A stretch of DNA of 64,000 nt from Geosiphon pyriformis uo1 (Eukaryota > Fungi > Glomeromycota), in NCBI GenBank assembly GCA_016748015.1, contig JAAOMT010000302.1, positions 434,001-498,000 on the forward strand, written 5' to 3'. Shown here piece after piece: positions 10,105 to 53,270 of this stretch (position 1 is its first letter; every line of letters begins with the position of its first letter). A model generated the notes under the pieces. That model was not told the origin of the DNA, did no database searches, and saw only the letters and a list, made by a program, of their open reading frames with translations. The position numbers were made by a program, and so were the translations under genes.

Positions 10105-10150
10105 TTTGGTGCTCTTTTATGGAAATAACACAGCAACAACAAAATTCAAA

Positions 10151-16100: not shown

Positions 16101-17165
16101 TCTTGTGATAGTTGTCAAAGAAAAGAAGGAACATGCCTTACTGAATCTTTAAATCCAATCAAAGTTGGACAACTTTTTGACCAAGTTGGTATCAATTTAA
16201 TTGGACCACTACCTATCATCATGCAAGAAAACTAATACATAGCAGTAGCAATAGATTAGCTTACCAAATGGCCTGAAGTCAGAGCTATTCAATGAGCAGA
16301 TACAAAATCAGTAGCAAATTTTATCTACAAAGACATTATTTGTAGACATAGATGTCCAATTGAACTTTTATCCGAGCAGGGAACACATTTTGTGAACAAC
16401 CTGATACAAAAAATTTGTGAATAATTTAATGTTAAAAGACCTTTATCTTCACCCTACCATCCACAGACAAATAAATTAGTGAAATTTTTCAACAGAACAT
16501 TGTGTAAATCATTAGCCAAAGTCTCAACAGATTTTGAACAAGAATAAGATATCTTTATTCCATCAGTGTTACTAGCATATAGAACACTAAAACAAGATAC
16601 AATGAAACACACACCATTTGATCTTACTTATAAAAGAACAGCAAAACTACCAATTGAATTCACAGTGAAAACATATCCAGTACAACCAATCACAGAAGGA
16701 AACTTACAAAAAACACTTCAGTGAAGAGCTTATACTCTTCTTAGTACTTTAAAAGAAAAAAGATGTATAGCAGCCACCCACATTGAAAATTCACAAGCCC
16801 AACAAAAAGAAAGACATGACAACAAACTGCCACTAGTTACAAACGAATTTAAAGTTGGAAATAAAGTTCTTTTACACCGAATTAAGGCTAAAAAACAATG
16901 GAGTAGAAAATTTGAACATAAATGGGATGGACCATTCTTTGTTCACGAAATCTTAGAAAATGGATCATACAAGTTAAGACTTAATGGGAAAATACTAGCA
17001 AAAGTTGCACATGGAGATTGATTGAAACATTATTACTCCAGAACACATCCTGAACCATTAATTCTACAAATTAGTACATATTCTTCTTTAGTTAATCCCA
17101 AAGATATTTCCCGAATCTTGAAACCAATAGTTGTCATTGAACAACATCCCAACTTGAACACTTAA
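10151..17165 (+). pseudogene. A1 gag-pol: N-extension, Gag, CCHC 11577-11618, PR (LDSG ~12213), Cys-rich domain ~12740-13345, dUTPase ~13460-13890, RT, RH, IN
   Basis: ORF fragments 10971, 12900, 13629 (IASRSFLA...GIIDAGYTG...EKIAQ) and 15054; VYLDD at ~14920; HHCC and DDE integrase motifs; many CGA->TGA and CAA->TAA stops. Confidence 0.9.
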
Positions 17166-17282
17166 TCACTATAGGTTCTTTTATAAAAATTTGGAAACAA
17201 TCCTACAAAAAATAACATAAAAATCTACATACCCAAAAATAATTTTACTTAGAAAAACTGTTAGTTCTTAAAAATCAGTATA

Positions 17283-17990
17283 ATGACTATTCCACAAAAC
17301 ATTTAACAATTATCTCAGAAACTAATGTTAACTTTAAAAACAATACCTGAATTATCTATAACTATTACAGGAAAACATATTAATTATACTTAAACAGAAA
17401 TAGTCACAACTTTATCTCCAAAATCACGAAAATATCACCCTTATAAAAAGAACACTAGAAGTTATTCTGGAATTCACCTACCAGAATTTTTGAAGCTTGC
17501 TTTGAGAGAAAATTTGTTGCTTCCACCTATTGACATTCTACCAAATGCCACAATTTAACAAAAACTTTGACAGTGTCTTAATGAAGAAAACAGTGAATAC
17601 CCTCCAATCTATAGATATTTTCACATTGGAAAAACACTGCATGAACAAAAACTGGAACTCACAACAGCCAACCTCACAAAAAAAGCCATTCAGAAACAAT
17701 TCTACAACGAATTTAAGACAATGACTGGACCGACAAACAGTTACTACAAACTTAAAGCAGCTCTTAGACTTTATGACCTATTTCACACCTGTGAAAATGT
17801 CCTACAAAACCCAATTTTACAACCACTGAAGATCCAATACATTGGAAAGTTTACAGAACTGAAATTTCAATAATTTTCAGACCAAATTTCTTCAGTAATT
17901 TTGGATTACTATTTGAAATGTGCAGACAGTACTTGGATTTTGACGGAGCTCAGTCTTGAGGAGGAGATTATGTTATCAACCAAAACTTGA
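17283..17990 (+). pseudogene. A1 ORF3, unknown accessory protein (236 codons) running through the PPT into the 3' LTR
   Basis: ATG at 17283 and TGA at 17988-17990 are in the same frame; homologous to ORF3 of A2, A4 and A5. Confidence 0.8.
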
Positions 17991-18936
17991 GATATTAATT
18001 AACATAATATTACTCTTATAATTTCTACCATTAAATTAGCATATATTATCATTCAAATTATCACTTATTATTTAATCAAATTATCGAATATTATCAATCA
18101 ATTAATAACCCAATTTGTACTATAAAAATTAGGATGATTAAATTACACAATATTCCGAACAATTTAATATTCAAGAGTTCACCAAAATTTGTAGAAATTT
18201 GCCGAAATAATTGATAGTTCACCAAAATATTCAATAATTTATAGAAATAACTTATAAGTTCACTGAAATATACCTTTAGTTCGTTGAAATCATAGTAAAA
18301 AAAATAGTTCAAGTTTACAGATTAGTACTACAACAAGTTGTATAAAAAAAGAGCTTCTCTCTTCGAGAAAATATATTCTTACCTTTAGATATCTTAATTT
18401 GAATCAATTCAATACACAAAAACGAAATAAATATCAAATAATTCAAAAATCAACTTTTTAATTATTGCACCTGAAAATTCCCAAAACCCAACTAATATTT
18501 TGAAATTGATTAGCTACCAATTTCAATAAACTGTTAGTGATTCCAGGTTTGGATAGAAAACGTTCTCTTGACAGAATTCTATTTCTTTTACATTTTTTTT
18601 ATTTTTCTTTTTTTTTCTTATTACAATCATTAGGGTAGCTTACAGACAAGATTCCTGTAGAAGAGTTGACTTTCACAGCAAAGTAACTACACATTTTTAG
18701 TGAGCTTCCAGGCAAGCAATTCCTGGGAAAGAGTTGATGTTTACTACAATGTAACTACATAAAGTAATTGGCAAGGAATTGGCCATTCTACTCATAAGCC
18801 CAGCAGTTCAAATTATAGGAAATAATTTGAAGATAAATTCAGTTATTGGAGGTTCAACCACATCCAGAAAACGTGAATTTACAGTAAACAGACATCAACA
18901 ACCATTAAGAAAAGAGACCAAAAACCTTTGATAACA
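17971..18936 (+). repeat. 3' LTR of A1
   Basis: Direct repeat of 9140-10104. Confidence 0.93.
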
Positions 18937-21900
18937 GTGGACACCAATTCCCTTAAATGTAACCAGTAATACCTTACCCATTAACTGGATCATAGCTTAC
19001 TGGGATATCACTAAATTGGAAAAATTTTCTGGTAAAGAAGATAATGCATATTCTTGGATTGTGGATGCTGAGAAAGCAATTACTGCTAATGGTTGGAATG
19101 ACAACTGCATAATTCAGGCACTGCCATTTTTTCTGACCGGAACCACCAATTTGTGGTACCAAAGCCTTGCAAAGAAGCCTACCTTCTTTACAGAGTTTAA
19201 ACTTACATTTCTGCAATACTTCTGTGACCCTAATACACTCATCCGATTGCAAAATTAATTTAGTATAATAAAACAAAATGACCATGAAGCAATAACTACT
19301 TATTTCGAAAGATTCAATTAGGTCTTTCGACAAATTCTAGCCATCAAGCAGAATTATTATACCACTGCACAAGTTCTCAATCAATTCATCAAAGGACTAA
19401 GGAGCAGCCTCCTAAGATCCATATGACCTTGCCATCCAGCAAACCTACAAGAAGCAGTCATTCTTGCTCGTGATTTTGAGTCGGCTGAGCAAGAAGCAAA
19501 TTATACTCAAGCCATTAATTTAGCCATCAATAGAACCTCTAATGTTGATGCAAAGATAACCCAATTAAGTGAAAAATTAACTCAGAAAATTGAGGGATTC
19601 TTAGCTGGAAGCACAGGAACTTATCAACCACCACAACGGAGAGAAAATAACAACAACAGCAGATACCCACAGCAACAGAACCGTCAGCAATAGCAACAAC
19701 CTTGGAGATCCAATCCCCACAACTGTTACTACTGCCAGAAATCTGGATACATTGTCTGTGATTGCAGAAAGAAGATAATAGACCAAAATCAAAGGAACCA
19801 AAAACAGCAACTCAGATATCAGTAAAGCATGGTACCCTAATATTCCATACCTCAGAATCAACTGCCCCAATATGCACAACAAGTCTTGTACACTCAACCA
19901 CCACCCCAGAATTATTATCAACCACTACCAATAACACAAGCAATTCCTTACTATCAAACTTCCCCTTACAGCTCATCCAAACTTCAAGCCATAGACTATA
20001 ATCAGAGATGGAAGAATCCCAATAACAATCAGGTACAAACCAACAGTAGACTGTCTCAATCAATTTTTCGTGGTCCTGCCCAATCTTGACCAACACCAAC
20101 TGGATACCCAAATCAAGCTTCCTATCTTGGTCTTATGGAAGACCAGAGTTTTGACAAATCTACACCTGTGGAAAAGGGAGATGTAAAATAAATCTCCCAA
20201 CCTTCCAAACAAACAAAAAGCAATATCTCACCAGCCACTATTACCAAAGACACCATCCTAGCTGCCATATTTCCTTTCGACATTGATAATTTGAACACTT
20301 ATAGCCTTTTTAGTGAAGTAGTCATCAATCAGAATAAACCAATAATGGCCCTATACACCAATGCCAAAGTCGGAGGAATAGATATTAAATTAATTCTGAA
20401 TAGTAGATCAGCCGGTAGCATAATTACAAAGCAGTTCATGGACCAACTAGGTCACTGAGTAGACTGTACTGCTACTGTCTGAATTATCACAGTGGATGAA
20501 AACACAAAAACCCCAATAGGAGAAATTGACAACTTCCCCTTCAAAATTAATAGAATTCAGATTCCTACCAAAGTACTTGTTATGGAAACTACTCAATATC
20601 AAGCTTTAGTGGGAAACAATTGGTTGTCAAAAGCCAATGCTACTCTCGACTAGAACACCTAAAAACTTCAACTTATGTTCAACGGACAGCATGCCCAAGT
20701 CCCAGCTATGTGCGGACACTTTAAAACCCAACATACCAAGGAACTCCTTATTAAATTCGAAAACACATCACTGCCACCAATCATTGAGACCTATCAGGTT
20801 TCATGGGCAGATGATTATCGAACTGAACTACTCCCACCACCAACCTGGGAAAAAAAAGGAAAAGGCAGAGCTGAAAAAGAGCCCCAATTGTCATTGATAG
20901 GATACGTAACTTTGGACCAAAGAAATCTATTTTACCAACCTCCAAGACTAATATGTGTTGATTGTGGAAAGAAGCTATCCACTATGGGCACATGTATCAG
21001 AGACAATGAAGAATGGCCCACCACTACCAAATACTACTGCAGACTTTGTTTACTGAAAAGATTTGGATGACCAAAATGACAAGGCAAGTGAGACAACATG
21101 CTATGCCTCACATGTGGCAAGATCTTGTCTGATGAAAGACTTTGGAATGATGTGCCTGGTAGAGGAGAAACATGCAATGAGGCTTGTTAATACATCATAT
21201 TAATCAATAATTGGATACGAAAGGGAACCTCCATTGAGAATGCTTGGAAATGAGCACTCAACAGGTTGGATGGTTATCCACATGATAACCACAAAATCTG
21301 GAGAATGGCAAGCACCAAAGCCAAAGATGCCACACCCAAAGAGATATGAGAAATCAAGAATAATCTCTGAATGCCCAAATATAATAGACCTGACTACTCT
21401 GTGGATGATTTTTTATGGATGATCCAGATGCATTTCAGAACTGATATCAAGAATTGGCCCCAACTTGAGAAGAACAAGAGCAAAGATTAGCCAATTTGAA
21501 TACCAAACTGTGCGATTACTGTTTGATCCCCTGTCACTTCCAGTACTGCGACAAATGTGATCTCATGTTTAATCCACCTCCAAGAATACTGTTTCCAATC
21601 ACCAAACTACCTGAGCCTGAAGAAGAAGAGATATTGATCACCAAGGACATGTCATTTCAAGATCCAACTGAGGATACTGAAACAGAACAGTATCTCACGT
21701 ATCCCAACCTATCCAAAGAACTAGAGCTAAAATGGTACAGTAACAATGAGAAAGGAATCTGCCCCAAAAGAACGCATAACACTGATGCTGGTTTCGACCT
21801 ATAATATCCTGGACAATCACCCATCATTATAACTCCACATTCCCTTGTAAAAATAGATCTTAAGATAGTGGTAGAAATTCTTATTAGTACAATGGTACAA

Positions 21901-24900
21901 GTTGCCTCTTGATCTAGTCTAGCCAAGAAAAAAATTGACATAAAAAGAGGAATCATCGATGCTGGTTACATGGGGAACATCATCATGATGCTACAGAACA
22001 ATTTGAACAGACCCTACAAAATAGAATCACAAGAAAAGATTGCTCAAGCTATCTTCCTACCCCTAATCAAAATACCCCAATTGATCCCAGTAACAACCCG
22101 AGAAGAATTAGGCCTCACTGCCTGAGGAATCAACAGGTTTGGATCAAGTGGAAAAGGAAATGTACCAGTTAATTTCACAGAAGAAGACAGTGACCAGGTA
22201 GAATTTATCTACACTAACACCATCATCTCTATTCCCTTATACTGACAATACATCCTCAAGGTGAATTGAAAGATCCAAGATCAAGCCCTGTTATTTGAAA
22301 CCAGTCCCAAAATCTGTTTCTTAACTAATGTTGCTAATCTATACCTACTGGCCAAAACCCATAAACACTTCAAAATCCCCATCCACAACCCAACAGAAGA
22401 TGTCATTGAAATCTCCAAAAGAACCCTTATTGGTTCCATATCTGCAGATATTCAAAATCTTGAAAAACTCCAGTCCATTTCAGACTTTGCACAATTATTC
22501 TTATTCTGCGACATTACCTTACAAGTATAGAATTTGCCAAAAAAAAGTTACTTGTTTACACCAAAAGAGATCAATAAATTGAATTTAGGAAACTTAAGTA
22601 CCCTGTAACAAATGCAACTCAAAGTCCTTCTGAATTAGCATGCCAATGTTTTTGCCAGTGAAAATGAATTTGAACACACTGACATCGTAAAGCATCAGAT
22701 TGATATGGGAGACACTTAACTGATTAAACAACAAGCTTACCGCATATCCCTATCTGGTAATAACCTAATTAAGCAAAAAGTGCAACAGATGCTTAATAAC
22801 GGCCTAATCAAAGAATTGTTAAGCCTTTGGTCTTCTCCAGTAGTCCTGGTTACCAAGAAAAATGGAAAGATACAATTCTGCATGGATTACCAAAAATTAA
22901 ATAGCATTACACAAGGAGATAGTTATCCCACTCCCCTTATTCAAGAAATTCTGGACAATCTAGAAAAAAAGAAATGGTTCTTATTATTAGATCTAGCAAG
23001 TAGTTATTGGCAAGTTGAAATAAACCCCAAAGACAAAAGAAAAACAGTGTTTATCACTTGAGATGGAAACTTCAAGTTTAACATAATGCCTTTTGGACTT
23101 TGTAATGCTCCTGCCACATTTCAACACCTGATGGATGTAGTATACAAAGGAATCCTTTGGAAATCAGTAGTAGTCTACTTAGATAACACAAATGTGTTCT
23201 CCGAAACATTTGATGATCATTTGCTCCATCTGCAACAAGTCTTTGAATGCCTTTGTAGTGCCAGATTGAAACTCAATTCCGAGAAGTACTTCTTTGGAAA
23301 AACTGAGTTAAAGTTCTTAGGACATATAATTGGCAAAAATGGAGTTAAACCTGATTCAAATAAAGTACAAAAAGTCAAGAATTTTCTAGCCCCAATCAAC
23401 CTTAGAGAATTACAAGGATTTTTAGGATTGGCAGGATATTATTGTCAATTTGTCAAAGATTTCTCGAATATTGCAAAACCACTCCATCAATTGTTGTCCA
23501 AATATGTATCATACTTATAAAAGGAAGATCAACAAAAAGCATTCGACTATTTCAAGCAGCAATTGATTACATCCTCAATCCTGATCTATTCAGATTTTAC
23601 TAAATGGTTCATTGTCACTACGGATGCCTTGAAAAATGCTTTAGAAGCAGTATTATTCCAGATAGAACCAGACAATAGAAAACATCCAGTTGTCTATGCC
23701 AGTTGCAGCACAAGCCCAGCGAAAAAAAATTACAGCACAACAGATTTGGAATGCCTTGCCATTTATTGGGTCATACAGACTTGGAAACATTACCTTAGTC
23801 AACCATTTGACCTATAAACCAATCACAAAGGACTTATTTGGTTACTCAATAATCCATAATTAGAAGAAAAATATGTGAGATGGAGTACTTATCTGTAACA
23901 ATTCCCACTCAAAGTCCATTACAAGAAAGGATTCAAGAACACCAATGTTAACAGTTTGTTGAGGATACCACAAACCTAATCCCAGACCCATGGACACACT
24001 CACTTATTAACAACTACATTAGTATCTATCAACACTACATTTCAAGGAGATATTATCTTAACAGGAACAAAGTATCATAAGAAAACAAGCCCAAAATTAT
24101 TTTATTCAAGACAATCAACTATATTGACGAGAATGCTAAAACCACCCCACTCCACAATGACTAATCAAGAACAGTGAAAGAGAAACTATACTATATAGTA
24201 TGTACTCAGATCTGATGTCAGGACACTTTAACAAAGATGCTATCCTCAAAAAAACACTAAATTTATACTATTGGCCAACAATATACAAAGACATTTTTGA
24301 ATACATGCTCAATTATAACACATGCCAGTAAAAAGGAGGAGCAAGATCAACAGAACCACTTCAATCTATTCCAGTTGAAAATCTATTTGATAGAATTGGG
24401 ATCGATTTGGTTGGTCTTCTCTCAATTATATCTAAAGGAAATTGGTATATCACTGTAGCCATTGATTATCTTACAAAATGGCCAAAAGCCAAAGCAATTC
24501 AAGTAGCCGATGCCAAAACAGTAGCTAAGTTCGTACATTAAGACCTAATTTGCTGACATAGATGTCCAAAAGAATTGTTATCCAATCAAGGAACACATTT
24601 TGTTAATAATACATTAACAAAATTAAGCCAATGGTTTGGTATAAAACATCCTTTATCATTACCATACCACCCACAAACTAATAGACTGGTAAAACAGTTT
24701 AACTGAATACTGTGTAAAGCACTAGCAAAAATAAGTCAAGAAAACAAACAAGAATGGGACCTATTCATACCTTTAGTACTCTTTGCATACTGAACATTAA
24801 AGCAAAATATAACACACTTCACACCATTCGAACTAGTCTATGGAAAAAAAGCTATGTTATCTATTAAATGAGAAATATTGTTCTACCCAACAGAAAAAAT

Positions 24901-26586
24901 TACTGAAGAGAATTTTAAAGCTACTTTGTACCACAGAACATACTAGCTAATAGAAATATTAAAAAACAATCAAAGAACAGCAGCTGATAATATTAGTAAT
25001 GCTCAAAAACAACAAAAGAAAAGACATAACAATTGCCTATCTGAACAACCAATGGAATTCAAGATTGGAGACCAGGTACTGTTACATTGTACAAAAGCTA
25101 AGAAACAGTGAAGTAGAAAGTTTGACCCAAAGTGGGATGGTCCATTCCACATATACAAAGCTTTAGGAAATGGAGCTTACAAACTACGATTGAAAGACAA
25201 AATTTTAAAGAAAGTAATGCATGGAAATTAGTTAAAAATTTAACATGCAAAACAGGAATTATTGTCATCAGTACCTCAACTAGGAACACAAATTTCATTA
25301 ATCAGACCAGAAGATATACCACAAGATCTGGAACCAATCATTATCATTGAAACATAGACAACATGCAGCAAATTAAATTGGGGAATTTAAATATATATAG
25401 CATCTGAAAAACAGCAAAAAATGATAGAAATTTCAACATGGATCTTTCAGATCAAATTTTAAAATTATCTAAACAATTATTTGAAACAATTCAAAAATTG
25501 ACATCTCAAATAGAAATAACAATTAATAAAAAAAAGATATAGTACAAAAATAAGAGCAGGAGAGGGGAGAACAAGAGTTCAATTAGAACTAAACGTTCCC
25601 TCTCCTAACCACCACCCAAAAAGCAATGTTGGAGGAAAAATTGCCTTTGGGCGGTGTTACCAAAGGTTTTTGGTCTCTTTTCTTAAATGTTGTCGATACT
25701 TGTTTGCTGTGAATTCACGTTTTCTGGATGTGGTTGAACCTCCAGTAACTGAATTTATCTTCAAATTATCTCCTATAATTTGAATTACTGGGCTTATAAG
25801 TGGAATGGCCAATTCCATGCCAGTTACTTTATGTAGTTATATTGTAGTAAACGTTAACTCTTTCCCAGGAATTGCTTGTCTGGAAGCTCACTAAAATGTA
25901 TAGTTACTTTGCTGTAAAAGTCAACTCTTCTACAGAAATTTTGTCTGTAGGCTACTCTAATGATTATAGTAAGAAAATAAAAGAAAAAAAAATAAAAAGA
26001 TGTAAAAGAAATAAAATTCTGTCAAGAAAAACGTTTTCAATCCAGGTCTGGAGTTACTAACAGATTATTGAAATTGGTAGCTAATCAATTTCAAAACTTT
26101 AGTTGGGTTTTGAGGATTTTCTAAATGCAATAATTAAAGAATTTGGTTTTTCAAATTATTTGATATTTATTTCTTTTTGTGTATATAGGAATGGTTCTAA
26201 GTAATAAATCTAAAGTAAGATACATTTTCTCGAAGAGAAAAGCTCTTCTTTTTATACAACTTGTTGTAACACTATTCTATGAACTTGAACTTTGCTATTT
26301 TCTACAATTTTGCTGAACTAAAGATACATTTCGGTGAACTACAAGTTATTTCTGCGAACTATTAGATATTTCGGTGAACTATCAATTATTTTGGCAAATT
26401 TTTATAAATTTTGGCAAACTTTTGAATGTTACATAGTTCGGGGTATTGCATGATTGATCATCGCAATTAGGTTACATTTGTGTTGTGTACAATTTGGGTT
26501 ATTAATTAAATGATAATTTCGGACATTTTTGCTAATGTAATAAGTGATAATTTGAAATGATAATATATGCTAATTAATGATAGGAA

Positions 26587-27324
26587 TTATAATATAGTTT
26601 CATGCTCAATAATATCTCTAATTTTGTCTGGTAACATAGCCTCCTCCTCAAGACTGAGCTCCATCGAAGTCCAAGTACTGTTTGTTATTTCCAGATAATA
26701 ATCCAAAATTATTGAAAAAATTTGGTCTGAAAATTGTTGAAATTTCAGTTCTGTGAGCTTTCCAATGTATTGAATCTTCAAAGGTTGAAAAATTGGGTTT
26801 TGTAGTACGTTTTCACAGATGTAGAATAGGTCATAAAGTCTAAGAGCAGCTCTGAGCCTGTAGCAACTGTTTGTTGATTCAGCTGTTGTCTTGAATTTGT
26901 TGTGAAGTTGTTTTTGAATAGCTTTTTTTGTGAGGTTTGCTGTTGTAAGTTCCAGTTTTCATTCATAGAGTGTTTTTTCAATGTGAAAATATCTATAGAT
27001 TGGAGGATATTCAGTGTTTTCCTTATTGAGACACAGTTGAAGTCTTTGTTGAATTGTAGCATTTGGTGGAATACTAATCAGAGTGAGCATTAGATTTTCT
27101 CTTAAAGCAAGCTTTAAAAGTTCTGGCAGGTGAATTCCAGTATAACTTCTTGTGTTCTTTTTATACAGGTGATATTTTCGTGAATTTGGGGCTAAATTTG
27201 TAACTATTTCTGTTTGGGTATAATTAATGTGGTTTTCAGTAACAGTAATGGATAATTCGGGTATTGTTTTTAAAGCTAACATTAGTTTTTGGGATAATTG
27301 TTGAATGTTTTGAGGAATAGTCAT
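26587..27324 (-). pseudogene. A2 ORF3 accessory protein
   Basis: ORF fragments 26959-27333 and 26587-26781 are in the same frame: MTIPQNIQQLSQKLMLALKT...YRYFHI...IQYIGKLTELKFQQFSDQI...ELSLEEE. Confidence 0.8.
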
Positions 27325-27445
27325 TATAAGCAATTTGAAATAAAAGAAAATTATTTTTGGTGTATGGGTTTTTATGTTATTTTTGTTTTGTTTTTGTGAG
27401 ATTGTTTCTAAATTATAAGAAGATAACTATAATAATTAATTTAAA

Positions 27446-30400
27446 TTAAGTGTTCAAGTTGGGAGGCTGTTCAATGACAACTATTGGTTCTAAATTTCGG
27501 GGAATGTCTTCAGGATTGATTTAAGGGAAATGTGTACCAATTTGTGGAATTAATGATTCAGGATTGTTTCTGGAATTATAGTGTTTCAAACGATCTCCAT
27601 GTGCAACTTTTGCTAGAATTTTGTCATCAAGTCTTAGTTTGTATGATCCATTGCCTAAAACTTCATGGATAAAGAATGGTCCATCCCATTTATTTTCAAA
27701 TTTCTCACTCCATTGTTTTTCAGCTTTAGTTCTGTGTAAGAGAACTTTGTTTCCAATTTTAAATTTATTGGTGATTGGAGGCAATTTGTTATCATGCCAT
27801 TCTTTTTGTCAAGCTTGGGAGTTTTCAATATGGGTGGCTGCTATTTATTGTTTTCCTTCCAACATACTAAGCAGAGTGTAGGCTCTTTGTTGAAGTGTTT
27901 CTTGAAAATTGTTTTTATTGATTGGTTGTGCTGGGTATGTTTCCACTGTAAACTTAATTGGTAGCATTGCTGTCCTTCCATAAGTTAAATCAAATGGTGT
28001 GTGTTTTGTGGTATCTTGTTTTAGTGTTCTATATGCTAGTAACACTGATGGAATAAAGATATCCCATTCTTGCTCAAAATTGGTTGAGACTTTGGCTAAT
28101 AACTCACACAATGTTCTGTTAAAACATTCCACAAATCTGTTTGTTTGTGGATGGTAGGGTGAAGACAGAGGTCTTTTGACATTGAATCGTTTGCAAATTT
28201 CTTGTATTAGGTTGTTCACAAAATGTGTTCTCTGGTCGGATAAAAGTTCAATTGGACATCTGTGTCTACAAATAATGTCTTTGTAGATGAAATTTGCTAC
28301 TGATTTTGCATCTGCTTGTTGAATGGCTCTGGCTTCGGACCATTTAGTAAAATAGGCTACAGCTACTGCAATATAACAGTTTCCTTGAGTAGTGATAGAT
28401 AATGGTCCGACTAAATCGATACCAACTCGGTCAAAAGGTTGTCCAACTTTGATTGGATTTAATGGTTCAGTAGGGCATGTTCTTTCTTTTCTTTGACAAC
28501 TATCACAAGATTCGACATATTCATGAATGTCTTTCCTTATTTGAGACCAAAAGTAATATTCTAGTGTTCTTTGAGTGGTGCTATCTTTTCCAAAGTGTGC
28601 TGATGAAGGATCTGAGTGCATGTTGTATAATATGGTCTCTTTTTTCTGTTCTTGTATTAGTCTGAGTGGTTTGTTTGGGTTTTTGAAATTTCGATGATAA
28701 ATAATATTGTTGTGTAGAAAATATTGTTTGGCCTTGTTGTTGTAGTTGATGTTTTTTATCTGGAGACCAATCTGTTGGAATTGTTAATGTTTCCAAATAT
28801 TGTTTGAGATTGTTGTAGTTTTCTGAATTCATTGTTTGTTGGCTCTTTTGGTTGGTTAAGTTGAGTGTTGGTTTTTGTTTTCTAATCTTGTCTCATTCTG
28901 AAGAGACAGTCAACATTGGTGTGGAGTTTTCCTGGTTTGTGATATACTATGTATCGATAATTTGCTAGAAATCCTGTTCATCGGGTTTGTTTTGCATTCT
29001 GCTGAGTATTTTTGTTCTGAAGCCATTTGAGTCCAATATTATCAGTGATAATATCAAATTTTTTAGGCCTGAGATAAAGATTGAAGTGATGTAGGGCCCA
29101 AATTACGGCTGCTGTTTCTAGTTCTGTGGCAGGGTAGTTTTTCTCAGCTGGTTTTAATGTTCTGCTAGCATAAGCAATTACTCATTCATTTCCATTGTCA
29201 TCTAGTTGTGATAAGATGGCACCAAAAACAGTATATGAAGCATCTGTAGCTAGTCAAAATCAGTTGCTAAAATCCGAGTAGGCAAGGATTGGGGCTGTTG
29301 TCAGTTTTTCCTTGAGAATTTCAAAAGCTTTTTGGTGTTCGGTAGTCCATTTGTATTCCACGTTTTTGGTGGTGAGCTGGTTGAGGGGTTTTGCAATTTC
29401 CAAGAATCCTTTGATAAACTTCCGATAGTAGGATGCTAATCTTATGAATCCTCTTAGTTTTGTAGTATTTCGTGGAACTTTGAAGTTCTTAACAGCACTG
29501 ATTTTTTCTGAATCTGGTTTGACTTCTTCTTCACTAACTATGTGACCAAGAAAGGCCAAACTTGTTTTTCCAAAATGGCATTTTTCAATGTTTAGTTTTA
29601 ATTCTGCTTTACGTAATCATTGAAAAACTTCTTGCAAGTGAATTAAATGAAGTCCGAAAGATGGGGAATAAACATCAGTGTCATTAAGATAGACAACTAC
29701 TGATTTCCAAAGGAGTCCAGCATATACAACATCTATGAGTCTTTGGAATGTTGCTGGTGCATTGCATAATCTAAAGGGCATTACATTGAATTCATAGTTT
29801 TCCCCTTGTATTGTGAATGCTGTTTTGGGGTGGTCTTTGGGATCCATGGCAACTTGTCAGTATTTGCTTTCTAGGTCTAATGTTGAAAAGTATTTAGATT
29901 TTCCAAGGGCATTTAACATGTTATCAATTCGCGGAAGAAGGTAAGCATCCCCAATGGTGACACTGTTGAGTTGTCGATAATCAACACAAAATTGTATCTT
30001 TTCATTCTTCTTTTTAACTAGGACCACTGATAAGGCCCATGGACTCATTGATGATTGGATAAACCCATTGTTAAGCATCCGTTGTACTTCTTCTCGGATA
30101 AATTGGTGGCTTTCTGGAGCAACTTAATATGCTTGTTGTCTTCTTGGTTTGGCATCTCCTGTATAAATTTGGTGTTGGACCAAATCGGTTCTTCCTAAGT
30201 TATTGTTGTTTTCAGCGAAGATATCAGCAAATTCTGCAATTAGTTCTTTGAGCTGGGTCTGTTGTTGTGGTTCAAGTTGTCCCATGTTGATTCGAGATAA
30301 TTTTTTCATGACAACATGGTAGTTTTCGGAGCTGGGGTTTGGATTGATTTTTGGTAGTGAATGTCCAATAATTTCAGAAAAATTGGGGACTGTTTGGGGT

Positions 30401-33400
30401 AATTCTTGTTGAAATATGTTATTGTGAATGATTCCAATTTCTAAGTTATTTAATAAAACTATGGGATAATTGTTGGGATTGTAAAAAGTAACTCAGACTT
30501 TCTTTGTTCCTTCTGGAATATAAATGTTTGGGATCAAGATATTATGTTTCAAGCAGATTTGTTCATTTGATTCAAAAATTTGTTGTGTGATTGTTGGCTT
30601 TTCACAAATGTAAATTTCAGGGTGTTCTCTAAAGGGTGAAATGGTAATTGGTTGTGGAAGTTGTAAAATCTGGTGAGATTCTTTCTGTTCATTGAAAGCT
30701 ATGTTTACTGGAACTGTGAAACATCCAGTTGAACCAAAACCTTGTGTTCCTCTTTCGCTTTTTCCCAACTGTTCTCTTTGATTAACTAATTGTAAATCTG
30801 AAATATTGATTAAGGGTAGATAGATAGCTTGAGCAATTTTTTCAGCATATCTAATTTTGAAAGGTTTATCAGTTTTATTTTGTAATATAACTGTGATGTC
30901 TCCTGTGTATCCAGCATCAATGATTCCTTCTCTAACATTGATTCCTTTGCTTGCCAAAAATAATTGAGAAGCAATTTGAACCATTGCTCCTAGTGGAATT
31001 TTAAGAGCAATTTTGAGGTTGATTTTTGTGAGAGATTTGGGTTTGAGAGTAAGAGTATCTTTTTCTGGATATCTTAGATCATATCCAGCATCGATTTTGT
31101 GGGCTTTTTTTGGTTTTATTCCTTGTCCATTGTTGTTGAAATATTTGAGTTGTAAAGCAGGCTGATTTTTGATGAGATAGATGGGTGTTGTCTCAATTTT
31201 TTCTGTTGCTTCAAGTTCTCCGAATTCAATTTCGTATTCATCATTTTTGCTGGGCAAGGGAATGCTAAGAGCATAGCATTCAAGACACCACTGTTTATCA
31301 CAAGGCATAATACATTCTTCACATAGTCTAATGTTCATTTGCTCTAATTGTTGAATTTGAGCTTTTTGGGTTGGGTAGGTGTGACTTGCAATTTGGTGGT
31401 AGACTTCTACTTCGTCTTCATAATCAAATCCAGCTAATTCCATGGTGTATTCAATGTATTCTGCTTCCTTCATTTGGCGAACATCTTCTTTGGTAGCTTC
31501 ATTAATTAATGCCATTGCTAGGTTGAAAATCATTTTGGCATCATGAAGGTAGTGATAAAGTTTGTTGAGAGCACTGTTGTATGCTGCATTAAAGGGTGTT
31601 CCTCTTTTTACTTTTTCTGAAATTGATAAAACATATTGGCAGGTCTGATCGCAAACTCCTCCTCTCATGGCTACATCAATCCAATTGCATTCTTCTGGTA
31701 GCATATCTCCACAAGTCAAACAAGAGGTGTTGTCCCATTTTCCACTTCTTTTTATTAGATGGCCCCATTGTTCTCTGTGGCAAAGCCTTGCAGTAATAAC
31801 AAGTATGATTTTCATATTCTTCTTTGGGTGAAATGCAGGCTCTCATTGATGATAATTTCTTGTGGCAGTCCTTATATTTAAGGGGAATATAGGGGCGTTG
31901 TTTTTTTGGTTCGGGTTTTGAGTAAGGTATATTCTATCCAGAGGTTTCGGGTTCAAAGTGTGGGGTAAAATGTTCTTGTTCTGTTTCATTGGCCCAGTTG
32001 GACGTTGATCCAAGAGCTATGAATGTTTCAATGAGGGGTTTTTCCTCTTCTGGTTCGAATTCAAAAGCCAGGGCTTTTTCAGAGTGTTTGTTGAATGTAT
32101 CACAAATGGCAGGTACTCAGGCGTGTTGTCCTTGGTAGGAAATTGTTAACTCTTGTGTTTTCCAATTCAGATTAGCATTGGCTTTTTGAAGCCAATCTTT
32201 TCCAATGAGAGTTTGGTATTGGGGTGCGTCCATTACAAGAACTTTAACTGAAATGGTAATTCTATCAAGAGTGAACAGAAAATTGTCAATTTCTCTTACT
32301 GGGGTTTTTTTCATGCTATCGGCAGTAACAATTACTGTTTGAGCTGGTTGGTCAATATTTTTTTTCAACTGTTGCATTAACTGGTAGGTGATAATGCTTC
32401 CGGCGGATCCACTGTCTAGGATTAAGTGAATTGTCTTTCCTTCGACTTCGGCTTTAGTGTACATGGTCGTGATTGCTTTTTGTTCATTGGCGGCTGTATT
32501 GTTAAGCAGAAATGATGACTCATTTGCTTCAAACTCAAAAGGAAATATATCTGAAAAGTTAGCATTTTCAGCGATTTTGGCTGGTGGAATTGTGGTAGGA
32601 GTATAGGAAGGATTTTGTTGTTGTGCTGCAGCTCTACCTTTCGAGAGTGCAGTATGGTGAAAATTCTGTTCTTCCGGCATTGTTAAATAACTGGGTTGAG
32701 TGTGGTAGTGGTTGGGTCTTGGTTAAGTGGTATTTCGGAGAACCAATTGGTTGTTCGAACTGATTCTATTGTTGTTTGCTTGGTATCGGTTTTGTGGTGT
32801 GAATTGATTTTGTGTAAGCAGTCTTTGAGCAGGTACTTGATAATATTGTGTGAGCGGTTATTGGTATTGCTGTGGGATTGGCTGTGGGGCAGGCTAATAA
32901 TAGTTATTTTGGTATTGGGATCTTGGTGGATAGTAAGCTGGTGGTGACAATTGATAATAAGATTGCTGTGGTGGAGGGTAATGTTGATTACTCCTATTTT
33001 GTTTGTCTCATTGTAGCTTTCTGCAATCTCTTTTCCAGTGGCCAGAAATTCCACAGTAATGGCAATTTTGAGGCTGGTTATTGGAAAGTGGTGCAAAGTT
33101 ATTTTGATTTCATCTTTGGGGTGGTTGATATCTTTGGAGTTGCTGTTGTTGTTGATTGGTGAAATAGTTTTCAACCTTCTTTGTGAGTTGGTCAATTTTT
33201 TCCTCAGCTGCTGAGCTGGTTTCTCCAATTGCCAAATTTACAAGTTTTGTGCAGTTGGCCTCTTCCATGGCCATTTCGTATCTTTTCGCATGCTGTATGG
33301 CAGAGTTTAAATCTTCTGGCGCATGTAGGCAAACATTTTTAATTAGTTTATCTTTTAGACCAGCAATAAATTGATCCAAGATTTGAGCATCAGAATAATA

Positions 33401-34492
33401 ATCATTTGTCTCAAGTTGGCGAATTCGTCTGAGAAGTTTGTTGAATTTCCCAATATAAGTCATAATGGATTCGGAGGGTTCTTGTTTGATATTTCGAAAA
33501 CGATTGTGAAGAGTGATGGAGGTGTTATTGTTGGTGAACTGTTCAAGGAAGGCTGCTTTGAAAGCATTCCAATCATTGAATGGGGTGGCCAAGTTTTCAA
33601 ACCATTCTTCTGCTGTTCCTTTGAGAAAGTAAGAAATTGTTCTTAATATTCTGGCAGCATTCCATCCATTTGCATCTCCAGCTTTAGTAACTTGGTCGAG
33701 CCATTCTTGGGGACTGGTCTCAATATCTTCTTTATTAAATTCAAGGATTTTTGCGATGTATGTTGTCATTTTGTCTTCTTCCTTTTCACTGTCTATTGAT
33801 TCTTCTTTAGTTATTTCAGAGTTGTTTTCTTTATTTGCTGCTGTCTCAGAGTGTTTACTTTGATTTTCAGCTAGAAAATCAAGGAGATTGGAACTAGTTT
33901 GAAGAAGTTCTTGTTGTCTGGTGGGACTTCTGAGTGATGTAAAATCTTTTGGTCTTGCAAATCAATTTAAGGGTGAATTAGGTGTTTGTGCTTGTGCAAG
34001 TGAAGCTGGAAAAGGTGTGATAGTAAGTGGAAGTTTTGAACTGGTTCCTTGTTTAGGTGTTTGTAAATGTTTGAATGATATTTTGGGAGTATTGGGTGTT
34101 ATATGAACAGGTCGGTTATCTCTTTGTCTTTTGTTGCTACTGGTTTCAGGTTCAGATTCAAGTTCAAAGACAAATTGTGTGTTTGCAGGATATTTTTCTT
34201 CACAGAATCAAATGATATTATAATCAAGTTTTTCAAAATAAGTAGTGCAAGCTTCAGCACTAATGTTTTCTGATTCAGTGTTGGAATAGTGTAGTATGTT
34301 CTTAAGAAGATCTCTTTTAATTGTTGTAATATTATAGTTTCCAAAGAGGTAGTCGTTGATTCGATTTTCGATGTATTGAAAAAGTGTTTTCTTGAAAGCT
34401 ATGATTCTGTCACGTATTTCAAATCGTTGTTTGCAGTGTGTGTAAATCAGTTGATAGTACTCTAAGGTTGTGATGTCTGAGGCAGTCGCCAC
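27446..34492 (-). pseudogene. A2 gag-pol
   Basis: Gag 33110-33769, PR LILDSGSAGS (32117-32680), Cys-rich domain plus dUTPase (30493-31815), RT 29617-30078, RT-RH connection 29260-29559, IN HHCC/DDE 27845-28621, GPF module 27521-27784. Confidence 0.92.
30724..31155 (-). other. dut: dUTPase domain of A2 pol (best-preserved copy)
   Basis: Four of the five trimeric dUTPase motifs are clear (DAGYDL, GIIDAGYTG, EKIAQ, RGTQGFGSTG). Motif II reads IASQLFLA here and IASRSFLA in A1. Confidence 0.9.
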
Positions 34493-36371
34493 TTTGAATT
34501 TGTTGTTGCTGTGTTATTTCCGTGGGAGAGCACCAAATGTTACCAGAGGTTTTTGGTCTCTTTTCTTAAATGTTGTCGATGCTTGTTTGCTGTGAATTCA
34601 CGTTTTCTGGATGTGGTTGAACCTCCAGTAACTGAATTTATCTTCAAATTATCTCCTATAATTTGAATTACTGGGCTTATAAGTGGAATGACCAATTCCG
34701 TACCAGTTACTTTATGTAGTTATGTTGTAGTAAACATTAATTTTTTCCCAGGAATTGCTTGTCTGGAAGCTCACTAAAATGTATAGTTACTTTGCTGTAA
34801 AAGTCAACTCTTCTACAGAAATCTTGTCTGTAGGCTACTCTAATAATTATAGTAAAAAAATAAAATAAAAAAAAATAAAAAGATGTAAAAGAAATAAAAT
34901 TCTGTCAAGGAAAACGTTTTCAATCCAGGCCTGGAGTCACTAACAGATTATTGAAATTGGTAGCTAATCAATTTCAAAACTTTAGTTGGGTTTTGAGGAT
35001 TTTCTAAATGCAATAATTAAAGAATTTGGTTTTTCAAATTATTTGATATTTATTTCTTTTTGTGTATGTAGGAATGGTTCTAAGTAATAAATCTAAAGTA
35101 AGATACATTTTCTCGAAGAGAGAAGCTTTTCTTTTTATACAACTTGTCGTAACACTATTCTATGAACTTGAACTTTGCTATTTTCTACAATTTCGCTGAA
35201 CTAAAGATACATTTTGGCAAACTACAAGTTATTTCTGTAAACTATTAGATATTTCGGTGAACTATCAATTATTTCGGCAAATTTCTATAAATTTCAGCAA
35301 ACTTTTGAATGTTACATAGTTCGGGGTATTGCATGATTGATCATCACAATTAGGTTACATTTGTGTTGTGTACAATTTGGGTTATTAATTAAATGATAAT
35401 TTCAGACATTTTTGCTAATGTAATAAGNNNNNNNNNNNNNNNNNNNNNNNNNNNNNNNNNNNNNNNNNNNCTATTCTATGAACTTGAACTTTGCTATTTT
35501 CTACAATTTCGCTGAACTAAAGATACATTTTGGCAAACTACAAGTTATTTCTGTAAACTATTAGATATTTCGGTGAACTATCAATTATTTCGGCAAATTT
35601 CTATAAATTTCAGCAAACTTTTGAATGTTACATAGTTCGGGGTATTGCATGATTGATCATCACAATTAGGTTACATTTGTGTTGTGTACAATTTGGGTTA
35701 TTAATTAAATGATAATTTCAGACATTTTTGCTAATGTAATAAGTGATAATTTGAAACAATAATATATGCTAATTAATGATAAGAATTATAATATAGTTTC
35801 ATGCTCAATGATATCTCTAATTTCATTTGGTAACAGCAGAAGGTGAAAAAAAAAGAGGCAAAAAACGAGAAAAAGGTTACAAAAAAAGATACTTGGTTCC
35901 TGAGCTCGAAGAAATAAAAGAAGCTTTAGCTCATAAGACTGAACTCTCCAAAACAGGGAAGTGGACACTTGACAATGCCCAGGAATGGAAAGAAAAACTT
36001 CCTCCAGCTTATTGGTTCTACAAAATTGGAGAACAGCTTGACTTAAAAACACCATACGAAGACCTCAGCCAGAAAACATTCAACAAAGAAGCAATACAAC
36101 AAGTAGAAAAATTCATAGGGAAAAACAACCTGACCCTATATTACAAAGTAGCATACCAACTATACACTACCTTCCAATATTGCCCAAACGTACTACTGAA
36201 CGGATCTATAAAAACCATAATGATTAACAACATAGGATAAATAACCAATCAACAGTTCAAAGACTTATAAAAGACAATACTCGAGACAACAATCAAACAT
36301 TACATGAATGAAGCCACAATAACAGATACATATGGTTTTGCAGGAGCTCAATTTTAAAAAGAGAGAAATAA

Positions 36372-37463
36372 TGTTACCCAAGTAGAAAAACTGATCCAAA
36401 ATTATAAAGAAACATAACATAACACAGAATAGTATAATAACATTAGATAACACGTTATAATATAGGATAACATGTTATAATGCAGGATAACATAGAATAG
36501 TGCACAATAATATAAGATAACATGTTATAATGTAGGATAACACAGAATAAAATGTAATAACATCAGATAATGTGTTATAACATAGGATAACTAGCAATAA
36601 CATAGAAAAACAAAGCAATAACAGAAATAACAAAGCAATAGCTAGTAATAGTGAGACAATTGAAAGCAATTCTGTAAAACCAAAAGAATGTATAAAAGCA
36701 AGTAGTTGTAAAAGTTAGAAAAGACAGACAGACAGATAAATATGAATCTCTAGACAAGAATCAAATATCCATACCCCTTCATCATTTATTATCCTCCCTA
36801 TTTTATCTTCTGAAATAAATCAATTATTAAAGAAATCAGAGTCACAAATTCATGTTCCCAAACTTTGTGGAATTTATGTAAATTAACTCTTGTCTTATAC
36901 CTTTGTTTTAGGACAGATGCTCTTAGCATAACTGCCTTGAATGATCAACGATTTGGACCAATCACTCTTGATCACAGTGATTGATGATACTAATTTATCT
37001 TTTCTTTCTTTTTTTTTTTTTTTTTCTTTTCTTTTTTTTTTTTTTTTTTTTTCCTTTTCTTTTTCTTTCTTAATTTTTTGTGGAGCAGCAACATAGTAAA
37101 ATCAACTGTTTGGAAATAGACTTTGTGATAGCCTGGTAAAAGAGGGAAGCTTCCCCTAAGTTTTGGATATTAACATTATCTTGTTAGCTTACCAGAAGGG
37201 TAAAAAAACAATGCCAGACCCTAACAACTGCACTTATTAGCTCGGAGAAGAAAGCTTATCTTTATAAGAAGTTGCAATCAGCAAGAACCAAAACTTTGTG
37301 CCTTATAATAAAAGAACTCAATGGGTAAATTTATATCCAGAAATAGACCTTCAGAGATTAATAATCAAGACTAAGCCAACAAAATTACGTGGAAGATGTA
37401 TCATCAATAATTAAGAGCACCAAACATTACCATTTCCCATACCCACCAAGTTTACCCATAACA
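36372..37463 (+). repeat. 3' LTR of element B
   Basis: Direct repeat of 7258-8325. Confidence 0.93.
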
Positions 37464-39000: not shown

Positions 39001-39994
39001 CCGTGATGTTTTTTGTGTTATTTATCATGCATGTTGGGAGGTCAGTTCTGGTTCTGGATTTCTAGATAATGGTCTGTGTTCAGATGTCAATTGGCTTTGT
39101 TCTTCCAGAGTTTGGCACCCTGATTTGCATATGGCCACTGGTTTCACCAGCAGGCTTATTGCTGACATTCAAACTTATCTCATGAAGGCTTTGCACTGTT
39201 ATTGGAGGTTTTCGGTCTCTTTTCTTAAATGTTGGTAATGTTGATTTGCTGTGAATTCACATTTTCAGGAAGTAGTTAAACCTCCAATAACTGAATTTAT
39301 CTTCAAATTATCTCCTATAATTTGAACTGCTGGGCTTATAAGTCGAATGGCCAATTCCTTGCCAGTTACTTTATGTAGTTATGTTGTAGTAAACATTAAT
39401 TTTTTCCTAGGAATTGCTCGTCTGAAAGCTCACTAAAAATGTGTAGTTACTTTGCTGTAAAAGTCAACTCTTCTACAGGAATCTTGTCTGTAGGCTACCC
39501 TAATGATTATAGTAAGAAAAATAAAAGAAAATAAAAGAAATGTAAAAGAAATAGAATTTTTGTCAAAAGAAACGTTTTCTATCCAGGCCTGGAGTCACTA
39601 ACAGTTTACTGAAATTGGTAGCTAATCAATTTCGAAATGTTAGTTGGTTTTTGNNNNNNNNNNNNNNNNNNNNNNNNNNNNNNNNNNNNNNNNNNNNNNN
39701 NNNNNNNNNNNNNNNNNNNNNNNNNNNNNNNNNNNNNNNNNNNNNNNNNNNNNNNNNNNNNNNNNNNNNNNNNNNNNNNNNNNNNNNNNNNNNNNNNNNN
39801 NNNNNNNNNNNNNNNNNNNNNNNNNNNNNNNNNNNNNNNNNNNNNNNNNNNNNNNNTTCTGTTATACTAATTAGATTATTTTAATTGAATCATAATATGT
39901 GATAATTGATTAAATAATAAATGATAATTTGAAATGATATTAATATACTAATAAATTATAGGAATTATAAGGGTAATTTCATGCTAATTAATAG

Positions 39995-40702
39995 CTAAAA
40001 TTCTATTGGTAACATAATCTTCTCCTCAAGACTGAGCTCTGTCAAAGTCCAAGCACTATCTGTAATATTGAGATAGTGATCTAAAATGATTGAAGTAATC
40101 TGGTCTGAAAATTGTTGAAATTTCAGTTCTGTGAGTTTGCCAATGTATTGGACTTTCATTGATTGCAGTATTGGATTTTGTAAAATATTTTCACAAGTAT
40201 TAAACAAATCATAGAGTTTAAAAGCTGCTCTAAGTTTGTAGTGAGTGTTTGTTGGTCCAGTTGCTGTTTTGAATTCATTATAGATTTGTTTTTGTATAAC
40301 TTCAGAAGTGAGATTTGTTGCTTCAAGTTCTAGTTTTCGTTCATAAAGTGTTTTTCCAATTTGAAAGTATTTATAGATAGAAGTGTGTTCATTGTTCTGT
40401 TCATTAAGAAGTAATAGTAGTTTTTGTTACATTGTAGTATTTGGTGGAATGTTAATAGGGGCAATTAGCAGATTTTCTTCTAGTGCCTGCTTCAAAAGTC
40501 TTGGTAATCTATTTTCACAGTGACTTCTTGTTTCTCTTCTATAAGGGTGATAGTTCTGTAAATGATTTGCTACTGGGGCTGTGGTTTTTTTCTGAATGTA
40601 TTTAATTTGACTTCCATTAATCATTATAGATAAGTCAAGGAGTGTTTTCAAGGCTAACATTAATTTTTGGGATATTTGTAAAATATTTCGGGGAATAATC
40701 AT
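39995..40702 (-). pseudogene. A4 ORF3 accessory protein (236 codons)
   Basis: ORF fragments 40427-40702 and 39995-40207 are in the same frame. Confidence 0.8.
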
Positions 40703-52562: not shown

Positions 52563-53270
52563 CTAAAATTCTACTGGTAACATAATTTTCTCTTCAAGAC
52601 TGAACTCTGTCAAAGTCCAAGTACTATTTGTGATATTAAGATAGTGGTCCAAAATAATTGAAGTGATTTGGTCTGAAAATTGTTGAAATTTCAGTTTTGT
52701 GAGCTTTCCAATGTATTGAATCTTTATTGGATAAAGTATTGGATTTTGTAGGATGTTTTTACAAATGTTAAATAAATCATAGAGTTTAAATGCTGTTCTA
52801 AGTTTGTAGTGAGTGTAAATTGGTCCAGCTGCTGTCTTGAATTCCTTGTGAATTTGTTTTTGTATAGCTTCAAGAGTAATATTTGTTGCTTCAAGTTTCA
52901 GTTTTCGTTTATAAAGTGTTTTTTCAATATGAAAATATCTATAAATAAAGATATGTTGATTGTTCTGTTTATTAAAAAATAGTAGAAGTTTTTGTTAGCT
53001 TGTAACATTTAGTGGAATGTTCATAAGGGCAAATAAAAAGTTTTTTTTTAGTGCTTGTTTCAAAAGTTCTAATAATTGATTTTCAGAGTAATCTCTTGTT
53101 TTTTTTCTATAAGAATAATAATTCTGAGAATTATTTACTACTGGTGTTGTGGTTTCTTTTTAAGTGTAATTAATTTGACTTTTATTAATTGTTATGAATA
53201 AGTCAAGAAGTGTTTTTAAAGCTAACATTAATTTTTGGGATATTTGTTAAATATTTCGAGGAATAATTAT
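52563..53270 (-). pseudogene. A5 ORF3 accessory protein (236 codons, start mutated to ATA)
   Basis: Colinear with A4 ORF3. Confidence 0.7.

What the first reader, a model, noticed from the sequence alone, without database searches (positions are those of the whole stretch)
26587..27324. Conserved non-Env accessory ORF3 after integrase in two divergent Gypsy families
Seen: every full copy has a separate ORF of about 235 codons starting roughly 80-170 nt after the IN stop (A1 17283-17990, A2, A4 39995-40702, A5 52563-53270, B 25438-36357). In family A it reads through the PPT and stops inside U3. Families A and B have dissimilar LTRs, yet their ORF3s align at the N-terminus (MIIPRNILQISQKLMLALK vs MDLSDQILKLSKQLFETIQK). 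They also align in a C-terminal helical block (YRYFHIGKTL...AALRLYDLF.TCENVLQN...IQYIGKLTELKFQQF vs YWFYKIGEQL...VAYQLYTTFQYCPNVLLN...INNIG.ITNQQFKDL). B has a very basic stretch, KKRGKKREKGYKKRY. There is no signal peptide or TM segment, so this is not Env. Established: canonical fungal Ty3/Gypsy elements encode only gag-pol, whereas 3' ORFs overlapping U3 are typical of complex retroviruses (nef, foamy bel, MMTV sag). Inference: an element-encoded regulator, such as a transactivator, RNA-binding factor or anti-silencing protein.
Basis: partly seen in the sequence, partly recalled or inferred. Interest (0 to 1): 0.85.

Follow-up and report, generated by a model that had tools for sequence, protein, structure and literature searches.

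The report
Fungal retrotransposon's unnamed third gene
Several jumping-gene families of a soil fungus, and relatives in environmental DNA, carry a real, selection-kept extra gene that matches no known protein family and likely encodes a nuclear switch for the element's own promoter, though binding is untested.

Summary
The ORF is real. It lies 80-164 nt behind integrase in four family-A copies and one family-B copy of nested dUTPase-bearing Ty3/Gypsy elements, most likely of Geosiphon pyriformis. No window copy is intact; intact versions exist in the database. It is under purifying selection (dN/dS 0.23-0.31; transversions at 0-fold sites 0.12-0.28 of the 4-fold rate). A and B are homologous (profile E 9e-9). 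New here: two more lineages from metagenomes (24-37% identical), one with the same layout from pol through the polypurine tract into U3. No TM segment, Pfam family or significant fold match. A PY-type nuclear-import motif sits at one position in all lineages, and each family's U3 has its own short repeat array before the TATA box. Best reading (about 45%): a nuclear protein that binds its own array to keep the LTR active, like VANC. Binding, expression and a helix-turn-helix are not shown. Extra 3' ORFs are a known kind, also in fungi; this family is unnamed. The scan noted similar ORF3s in other genomes (e1-9804276, e1-9576172); homology was not testable.

The parts
26587..27324 (-). ORF3 of element A2, 245 codons, one internal TGA at codon 122
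   Evidence: 91% identical to an intact G. pyriformis record P0002
27202..27324 (-). N-terminal module (about residues 1-41), predicted helix plus two strands, low confidence
   Evidence: model (pLDDT under 50 here); HHalign A plus metagenome vs B E 3.5e-5
27157..27177 (-). PY-NLS-like motif in a predicted disordered linker (KYHLYKK in this copy; KYHPYKK in A1)
   Evidence: PY in 63 of 101 family-A records covering it, the rest mostly LY/SY/FY
26689..27087 (-). Conserved all-helical core domain (about residues 80-212), fold unassigned
   Evidence: (mean pLDDT 77.5, pTM 0.70 for the homologous domain)
26637..26652 (-). Polypurine tract, read in frame by ORF3 as the acidic LEEE tail
25655..26636 (-). 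3' LTR of A2 (982 bp, TG...CA)
26274..26419 (-). U3 array of family-A repeats (about 11-bp motif every 20-21 bp) just upstream of a TATA-like box at about 26257; candidate ORF3 binding sites
   Evidence: TRF period 20 at 26328-26391
27325..27454 (-). A/T-rich non-coding spacer between the integrase stop and the ORF3 ATG; no ATG and no YAG within 85 nt of the start
27455..33961 (-). gag-PR-dUTPase-RT-RH-IN of A2 (decayed); no chromodomain hit among the frames scanned
34538..35835 (-). 5' LTR of A2, assembled in two overlapping pieces around an N gap
17283..17990 (+). ORF3 of element A1 (9140-18936), 5 internal stops
39995..40702 (-). ORF3 of element A4 (second subfamily), 1 internal stop
52563..53270 (-). 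ORF3 of element A5, 3 internal stops, start codon ATA
25438..25654 (+). 5' part of family-B ORF3, cut by the A2 insertion
   Evidence: intact database copy P0123
35836..36357 (+). 3' part of family-B ORF3, ending before the polypurine tract
36372..37463 (+). 3' LTR of B with a 10-bp-unit U3 array (about 36415-36640); its 5' LTR is 7258-8325

Best explanation
ORF3 is a genuine third gene of a dUTPase-bearing Ty3/Gypsy lineage, kept by purifying selection in at least four divergent families, and it likely encodes a nuclear protein that would bind the short repeat array in its own family's LTR to keep the promoter active. Shown: position, selection, homology across families, no TM segment, and an array before the TATA box that differs between families. 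Inferred: import through a PY-type signal in the disordered linker; DNA binding by the helical core (a predicted helix-Gly-turn-helix with R/K/N residues at about 133-167); action as a transactivator or as a family-specific anti-methylation factor like VANC; expression from a separate short transcript that starts in or near the spacer rather than from a spliced one.
For: Selection: dN/dS 0.23-0.31 in 6 of 6 pairs, integrase 0.17-0.54. Transversion ratio 0-fold/4-fold 0.12-0.28, p<=0.011 in 6 of 6 pairs, which removes the C-to-T decay bias. All six stop positions sit where another copy has a C-containing codon. Spread: 193 of 419 candidates and 43 of 146, every listed one from G. pyriformis; P0186, P0189/P0191 and P0192 come from metagenomes. 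L001 has RT-RH-IN, spacer, intact ORF3, polypurine tract and LTR in the same order, and L002 has the IN tail upstream. PY lies at the homologous spot in 63 of 101 family-A records (63 of their 64 PY dipeptides), 5 of 5 metagenomic sequences and 2 of 9 family-B records, where the others are mostly one C-to-T step away; consensus R/H/K-X2-5-PY and the yeast Hrp1 signal RNNGYHPY from PMC2408616. Arrays: the best U3 motif beat all 30 shuffles in 5 of 6 A LTRs and 2 of 2 B LTRs, with no cross-family match in U3. In L001 the U3 motif also occurs twice, 21 bp apart, about 180-200 nt upstream of the ORF3 ATG (5 hits, 0.35 expected, 0 of 200 shuffles). Decay between LTR pairs is almost all transitions (60 of 60 in A1, 31 of 32 in A2), as expected under cytosine methylation. 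VANC precedent: PMC6719617.
Against: No DNA-binding fold is established. Foldseek found nothing at E<=0.001. Spo0J (Z 4.4, rmsd 4.8, 96 aligned), KorB (Z 3.7, rmsd 4.7, 97) and ParB (Z 3.5, rmsd 9.1, 119) appear for the full-length model but not in the top 50 for the better domain model, and all Z values lie below the tool's noise level. HHalign against 5 ParB-HTH sequences gave E 0.65, no better than shuffles; against 10 DUF1016_N sequences E 0.033 in one post-hoc test. Repeat arrays in U3 are common in LTRs and can serve host factors (general knowledge). The L001 motif was picked by eye, and the automatic test did not flag that LTR (4 copies against a shuffle maximum of 5); A5's 3' LTR only tied its shuffles. 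Family A has only single weak motif copies near ORF3, inside coding sequence, and B has none clearly. Metagenomic ORF3s are acidic overall (pI 5.2-5.9). Only 55 of 101 A records meet the full PY consensus, and the motif is short. The acidic tail is a by-product of the polypurine tract and is missing in B.
Confidence: 0.45

Rival explanations
1. ORF3 is a Rev/CERV-like nuclear RNA-binding factor that would export or stabilise the unspliced genomic RNA.
For: The PY-type motif is typical of RNA-binding cargoes (PMC2408616). Both A and B LTRs hold a long pyrimidine tract downstream of the TATA box, followed by AG in A, which could be an intron end. Precedent: CERV of Cer1 (PMC10309623, abstract).
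Against: No RNA-binding family or fold hit. No conserved arginine-rich motif once decay is allowed for. The pyrimidine tract may be a 3'-end signal. It does not explain the motif pair upstream of ORF3 in L001.
Confidence: 0.2
2. ORF3 is a particle or integration cofactor (nuclear entry of the pre-integration complex, or chromatin tethering in place of a chromodomain).
For: No chromodomain hit on these integrases; import motif present; A1 and A2 both inserted into element B, in a dense nest.
Against: It is a separate ORF, not fused to IN, at 80-316 nt from the IN stop. Nesting alone is expected in a TE-rich genome. No reader domain found.
Confidence: 0.15
3. ORF3 acts on the host rather than on its element (general suppressor of silencing, drive or addiction factor, or a captured enzyme).
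For: It evolves much faster than IN between families (21-37% against 49-61% identity), as conflict proteins do. AM fungi methylate TEs and target Gypsy elements with small RNAs (bioRxiv 10.1101/2021.03.30.436303, passages).
Against: No homologue was recognised outside such elements among 1.84 billion representatives (31 hits; context checked only for L001 and L002). Invariant columns are mostly hydrophobic, with no catalytic-looking set.
Confidence: 0.15
4. It is an Env remnant or an unselected frame carried along by the element.
For: It occupies the env position, and no copy in the window is intact.
Against: No hydrophobic segment; selection similar to integrase; frame kept across families whose LTRs are unrelated.
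Confidence: 0.03

Closest known systems
Sense additional ORFs between pol and the 3' LTR (aORF-3S; Athila, Bagy2; PMC7264820, parts 1-2 of 3 read)
   Same: Same place and strand; present in all full copies of the family; conserved.
   Different: Those described are Env-like, often with TM segments and spliced messages. This one is soluble, has no conserved acceptor before the ATG, and is fungal.
Non-Env ORF3s of bdelloid rotifer LTR elements (PMC5408684, passages)
   Same: dUTPase-bearing Gypsy-type elements with a separate non-Env ORF3.
   Different: Those are recognisable captured enzymes (GDSL, DEDDy) or TM/coiled-coil proteins; this one matches no family.
VANC21/VANC6 of Arabidopsis VANDAL transposons (PMC6719617, passages)
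   Same: Works-like model: a family-specific accessory protein paired with short tandem motifs in its own element, in a methylating host.
   Different: VANDAL is a plant DNA transposon. No sequence link was found, and demethylation or binding is untested here.
CERV of C. elegans Cer1 (PMC10309623, abstract only)
   Same: Nuclear accessory protein of a Ty3/Gypsy element with no known relatives.
   Different: CERV comes from a spliced mRNA and exports genomic RNA; no homology was tested or seen.
Fungal Gypsy elements with extra ORFs: Boty (PMC7264820), an 'add. ORF' in PMC2864245 (figure legend); CfT-1 env-like ORF3 (recalled, not found)
   Same: Fungal host, extra ORF of unknown function.
   Different: Boty's ORF is antisense; sequences of these ORFs were not available to compare.
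Foamy virus Tas/Bel1 and other retroviral 3' transactivators (recalled)
   Same: 3' sense ORF next to U3; Tas binds the LTR and an internal promoter, which the L001 motif pair would parallel.
   Different: No env gene here and no sequence or fold match; the overlap with U3 is a few codons and absent in B.

Membership tests
Ty3/Gypsy LTR retrotransposon (host element) | TG...CA LTRs, PBS, polypurine tract, target-site duplication | tested here: met
   (4-bp duplications, each with one mismatch)
Ty3/Gypsy LTR retrotransposon (host element) | gag, then PR-RT-RH-IN order | tested here: met
   dUTPase lies between PR and RT in A1, A2, A5 and B
Sense additional ORF between pol and 3' LTR (aORF-3S) | Separate sense ORF after IN in most copies, conserved like other element genes | tested here: met
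Sense additional ORF between pol and 3' LTR (aORF-3S) | Own transcript (spliced or subgenomic) | not testable with these tools
   no run could be laid on the stretch; no conserved acceptor near the ATG
Env / Env-like | Transmembrane anchor and signal peptide | tested here: not met
   maximum 19-residue hydropathy 0.44-1.33 in 11 of 11 proteins; no dedicated predictor was available
ParB/KorB-type helix-turn-helix | Structural match to the HTH domain | tested here: inconclusive
   Z 3.5-4.4 for model 1, not in the top 50 for model 2
ParB/KorB-type helix-turn-helix | Profile match | tested here: inconclusive
   no Pfam hit; HHalign E 0.65 with a 5-row profile, too thin to exclude
DUF1016_N (YhcG N-terminal domain) | Profile match above cut-off | tested here: not met
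   12.9 bits against a cut-off of 32.8, 1 of 15 members; HHalign probability 1.6%, E 0.033
PY-NLS cargo | R/H/K-X2-5-PY in a disordered, basic segment | tested here: inconclusive
   motif at one conserved site, linker pLDDT under 50; import not tested
VANC-like anti-silencing factor | Short tandem motif specific to the cognate family | tested here: met
VANC-like anti-silencing factor | Protein binds the motif and lowers methylation of its own family | not testable with these tools
   needs bench work

The most novel reading that the evidence does not exclude
A new protein family, possibly with a new helical fold, that gives fungal Ty3/Gypsy elements a self-encoded, sequence-specific LTR activator or anti-methylation factor, with protein and U3 array diverging together in each family; it could help explain the LTR expansion in Geosiphon.
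Probability: 0.3. Interest if true: 0.85.

Novelty: new variant of a known kind. Interest (0 to 1): 0.55.

Why it matters
Gag and Pol are thought to suffice for LTR retrotransposition, and most extra 3' ORFs have no known role. Here an unnamed gene was kept across families whose LTRs share no similarity, in a fungal lineage reported to have undergone a striking LTR expansion (PMC11952901, passage). The family-specific U3 arrays give a direct cross-over test (protein A or B against array A or B). The gene also inflates the host's annotation: well over a hundred G. pyriformis 'hypothetical proteins' are copies of it.

Tried and rejected
No whole genome is held, so genome-wide copy counts and dN/dS could not be done; selection rests on four window copies. 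No RNA holder was listed. Pfam, PHROGs and NCBIfam gave nothing near a cut-off: best were phrog_23683 (unknown function, 8 of 15 members, best E 4e-4) and FtsQ (15.9 bits against 366). PDB sequences: 0 hits at E<=10. Foldseek PDB and BFVD: none at E<=0.001. VIA best Z 5.0 and 5.2; TetR C-terminal domains at Z 3.6-5.2 were taken as generic helix packing. Viral contigs: no relatives. Plasmids: no match. Prokaryotic genome contigs were not scanned. The ESM Atlas gave no answer, and no complex was predicted. The first ParB comparison held two wrong rows of six (one wrong strand, one unrelated HTH) and was redone with five; its YhcG-ParB control was also not significant, so the test is weak. dN/dS on subfamily-diagnostic codons alone was 0.30 with a wide interval (0.13-0.69), the N-terminal part's interval included 1, and the +1 control frame gave 0.36-0.58, so the transversion test carries the claim. 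Subfamily-diagnostic changes were not skewed to third positions over the whole ORF (26/19/28, p 0.4). Trees of 6-7 rows were poorly resolved; only the order of identities is used. A spliced message via an acceptor just before the ATG was rejected as a shared mechanism (last YAG at -86 in A2, -264 in L001).

Full report
Setting. The window is 31% GC with a Gti1/Pac2 host gene at 2233-3819 and a nest of LTR elements. Element B spans 7258-37463; A1 (9140-18936, +) and A2 (25655-35835, -) are inserted into it with 4-bp target duplications; A4 and A5 follow. A1, A2, A5 and B show gag, protease, dUTPase, RT-RH and integrase in Ty3/Gypsy order; A4's dUTPase was not hit. All 120 listed of 193 hits for the A ORF and all 43 hits for the B ORF are Geosiphon pyriformis hypothetical proteins, one 100% identical to the window over 47% of the query. 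The window is therefore most likely from that fungus.

The observation. The frame at 26587-27324 (-) has 245 codons with one TGA at codon 122. None is intact in the window, but intact records of 235-245 aa exist for both A subfamilies and one of 244 aa for B. In A the frame crosses the polypurine tract and ends 20-50 nt inside the LTR; in B it ends before the tract. A and B are homologous in the core and, more weakly, in the first 41 residues, while their LTRs are unrelated (K2P 0.88).

Selection. Pairwise dN/dS is 0.23-0.31 for ORF3 and 0.17-0.54 for integrase. Decay after insertion is almost purely transitions (60 of 60 differences between A1's LTRs), which can inflate dS, so I compared transversions at 0-fold and 4-fold sites: ratio 0.12-0.28, p<=0.011 in all six pairs, against 0.13-0.24 for integrase and 0.04-0.16 for RT-RH. 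The pairs are not independent. The N-terminal part passes in five of six pairs and the core in five of six at p<0.05. There is no indel in 688 nt, whereas the spacer has 27-55 gap columns per pair.

Relatives elsewhere. A search of 1.84 billion representatives gave 31 hits, two of them distant and full-length (P0186, P0189; 30-31%), both unnamed metagenomic proteins. A profile of these added P0192. Their DNA shows the same setting. L001 has RT-RH (58% to A2), integrase (57-59%), a 316-nt spacer, an intact ORF3 (31%), the polypurine tract and an LTR; L002 has the integrase tail, a longer spacer and a decayed ORF3 start. The metagenomic profile also matches family B (HHalign 98%, E 1.6e-13). So at least four families share the gene. 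Between families ORF3 is 21-37% identical where integrase is 49-61%, with B the most distant in both, which fits inheritance with the element. The hosts of L001 and L002 are unknown.

What the protein looks like. AlphaFold2 gives a low-confidence N-terminal helix-strand-strand module, a disordered linker, a confident helical core (about 80-212) and a disordered tail; the core folded alone reaches pLDDT 77.5 and pTM 0.70. No family, solved sequence or fold matches significantly. ParB-type HTH domains and the Raf1 N-terminal domain are among the rows covering the whole core, at Z 3.5-4.5; only Raf1 recurs. One member hits DUF1016_N at E 0.12. Direct profile tests were not significant. These are leads only. 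The linker carries PY after a basic or His residue at the same place in all lineages, matching the R/H/K-X2-5-PY import consensus (PMC2408616: abstract and passages). There is no hydrophobic segment.

The LTRs. Each family has its own repeat array directly before a TATA-like box: an 11-bp motif every 20-21 bp in A, a 10-bp unit in B, and a 7-10-bp motif three times in L001, with no cross-family match in U3. The shuffle test passed in 7 of 9 LTRs; A5's 3' LTR tied and L001 failed it. L001's motif recurs twice, 21 bp apart, about 190 nt before the ORF3 start and nowhere in its 2.1 kb of pol (motif chosen by eye). The two A subfamilies share one motif, and their cores are more alike than their N-terminal halves (77% against 56% for one pair).

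Mechanism. I commit to a nuclear, sequence-specific binder of the element's own array that keeps the LTR, and perhaps an internal ORF3 promoter, active, by recruiting transcription or by countering methylation (0.45). Shown: gene, selection, spread, arrays, motif. Inferred: import, binding, effect, transcript. Rivals: RNA export factor (0.2), particle or integration cofactor (0.15), host-directed factor (0.15), Env remnant or neutral frame (0.03).

Literature. Ten searches were run. None surfaced a description of this ORF, but most subscription papers, including the Geosiphon genome papers, are not in the searched library, and no supplements were read; element annotations in supplements could mention it. 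Seen: PMC7264820 parts 1-2 of 3; passages of PMC11952901, PMC5408684, PMC3248453 (also abstract), PMC8778642, PMC2864245, PMC6719617, PMC2408616 and bioRxiv 10.1101/2021.03.30.436303; abstract of PMC10309623. Foamy virus Tas, nef, sag and CfT-1 are recalled. Extra 3' ORFs are a known kind, including in fungi, so the finding is a new, unnamed family within that kind. The scan's earlier notes e1-9804276 and e1-9576172 describe similar ORF3s in other genomes; sequence look-ups found no look-alike, so whether they are the same family is open.

Verdict. Real and selected; novel as a protein family; function testable but unproven. Interest 0.55.

Noticed in passing
window 8290-8335 and the equivalent A junctions (10085-10115, 34528-34560): The end of U5 carries the complement of the primer-binding site just behind the LTR (perfect over 9-10 nt in B, with one bulge in A), so a hairpin would cover the PBS; the primer tRNA was not identified.
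   Followed up: no
window LTRs, for example 9745-9800 and 7880-7940: Both A and B LTRs hold a long pyrimidine tract downstream of the TATA box, ending in TAG in A; it may be an intron end in the leader or a 3'-end signal.
   Followed up: no
window 35428-35470, 38138-38748, 39654-39856, 45695-45904, 46864-47429: Four of the five N gaps fall inside LTRs; at 34538-35835 and 46499-48237 the pieces on both sides overlap in LTR coordinates, so these LTRs look over-long through assembly.
   Followed up: partly
window 30703-31137, 13476-13910, 21739-22173, 56702-57124: A dUTPase domain lies between protease and RT in both families, preceded by a long unassigned stretch of Pol.
   Followed up: partly
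window 2233-3819 (+): Host Gti1/Pac2 (WOPR) transcription-factor gene about 3.4 kb upstream of the nest, with higher CpG o/e (0.68) than the elements (0.22-0.37).
   Followed up: no
protein records: Many annotated G. pyriformis proteins are gene-caller splices of decayed copies that join integrase SH3 or other pieces to ORF3, some in the wrong frame.
   Followed up: partly
window 48238-51593: The stretch between A4 and A5 has no hit to the A2 Gag-Pol or ORF3 queries, though it holds short ORFs at 48324-48844 and an AT-rich tract.
   Followed up: no
L002:110-860: The spacer between integrase and ORF3 is about 730 nt here, much longer than in the other families, and its ORF3 start codon reads ATA.
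   Followed up: no
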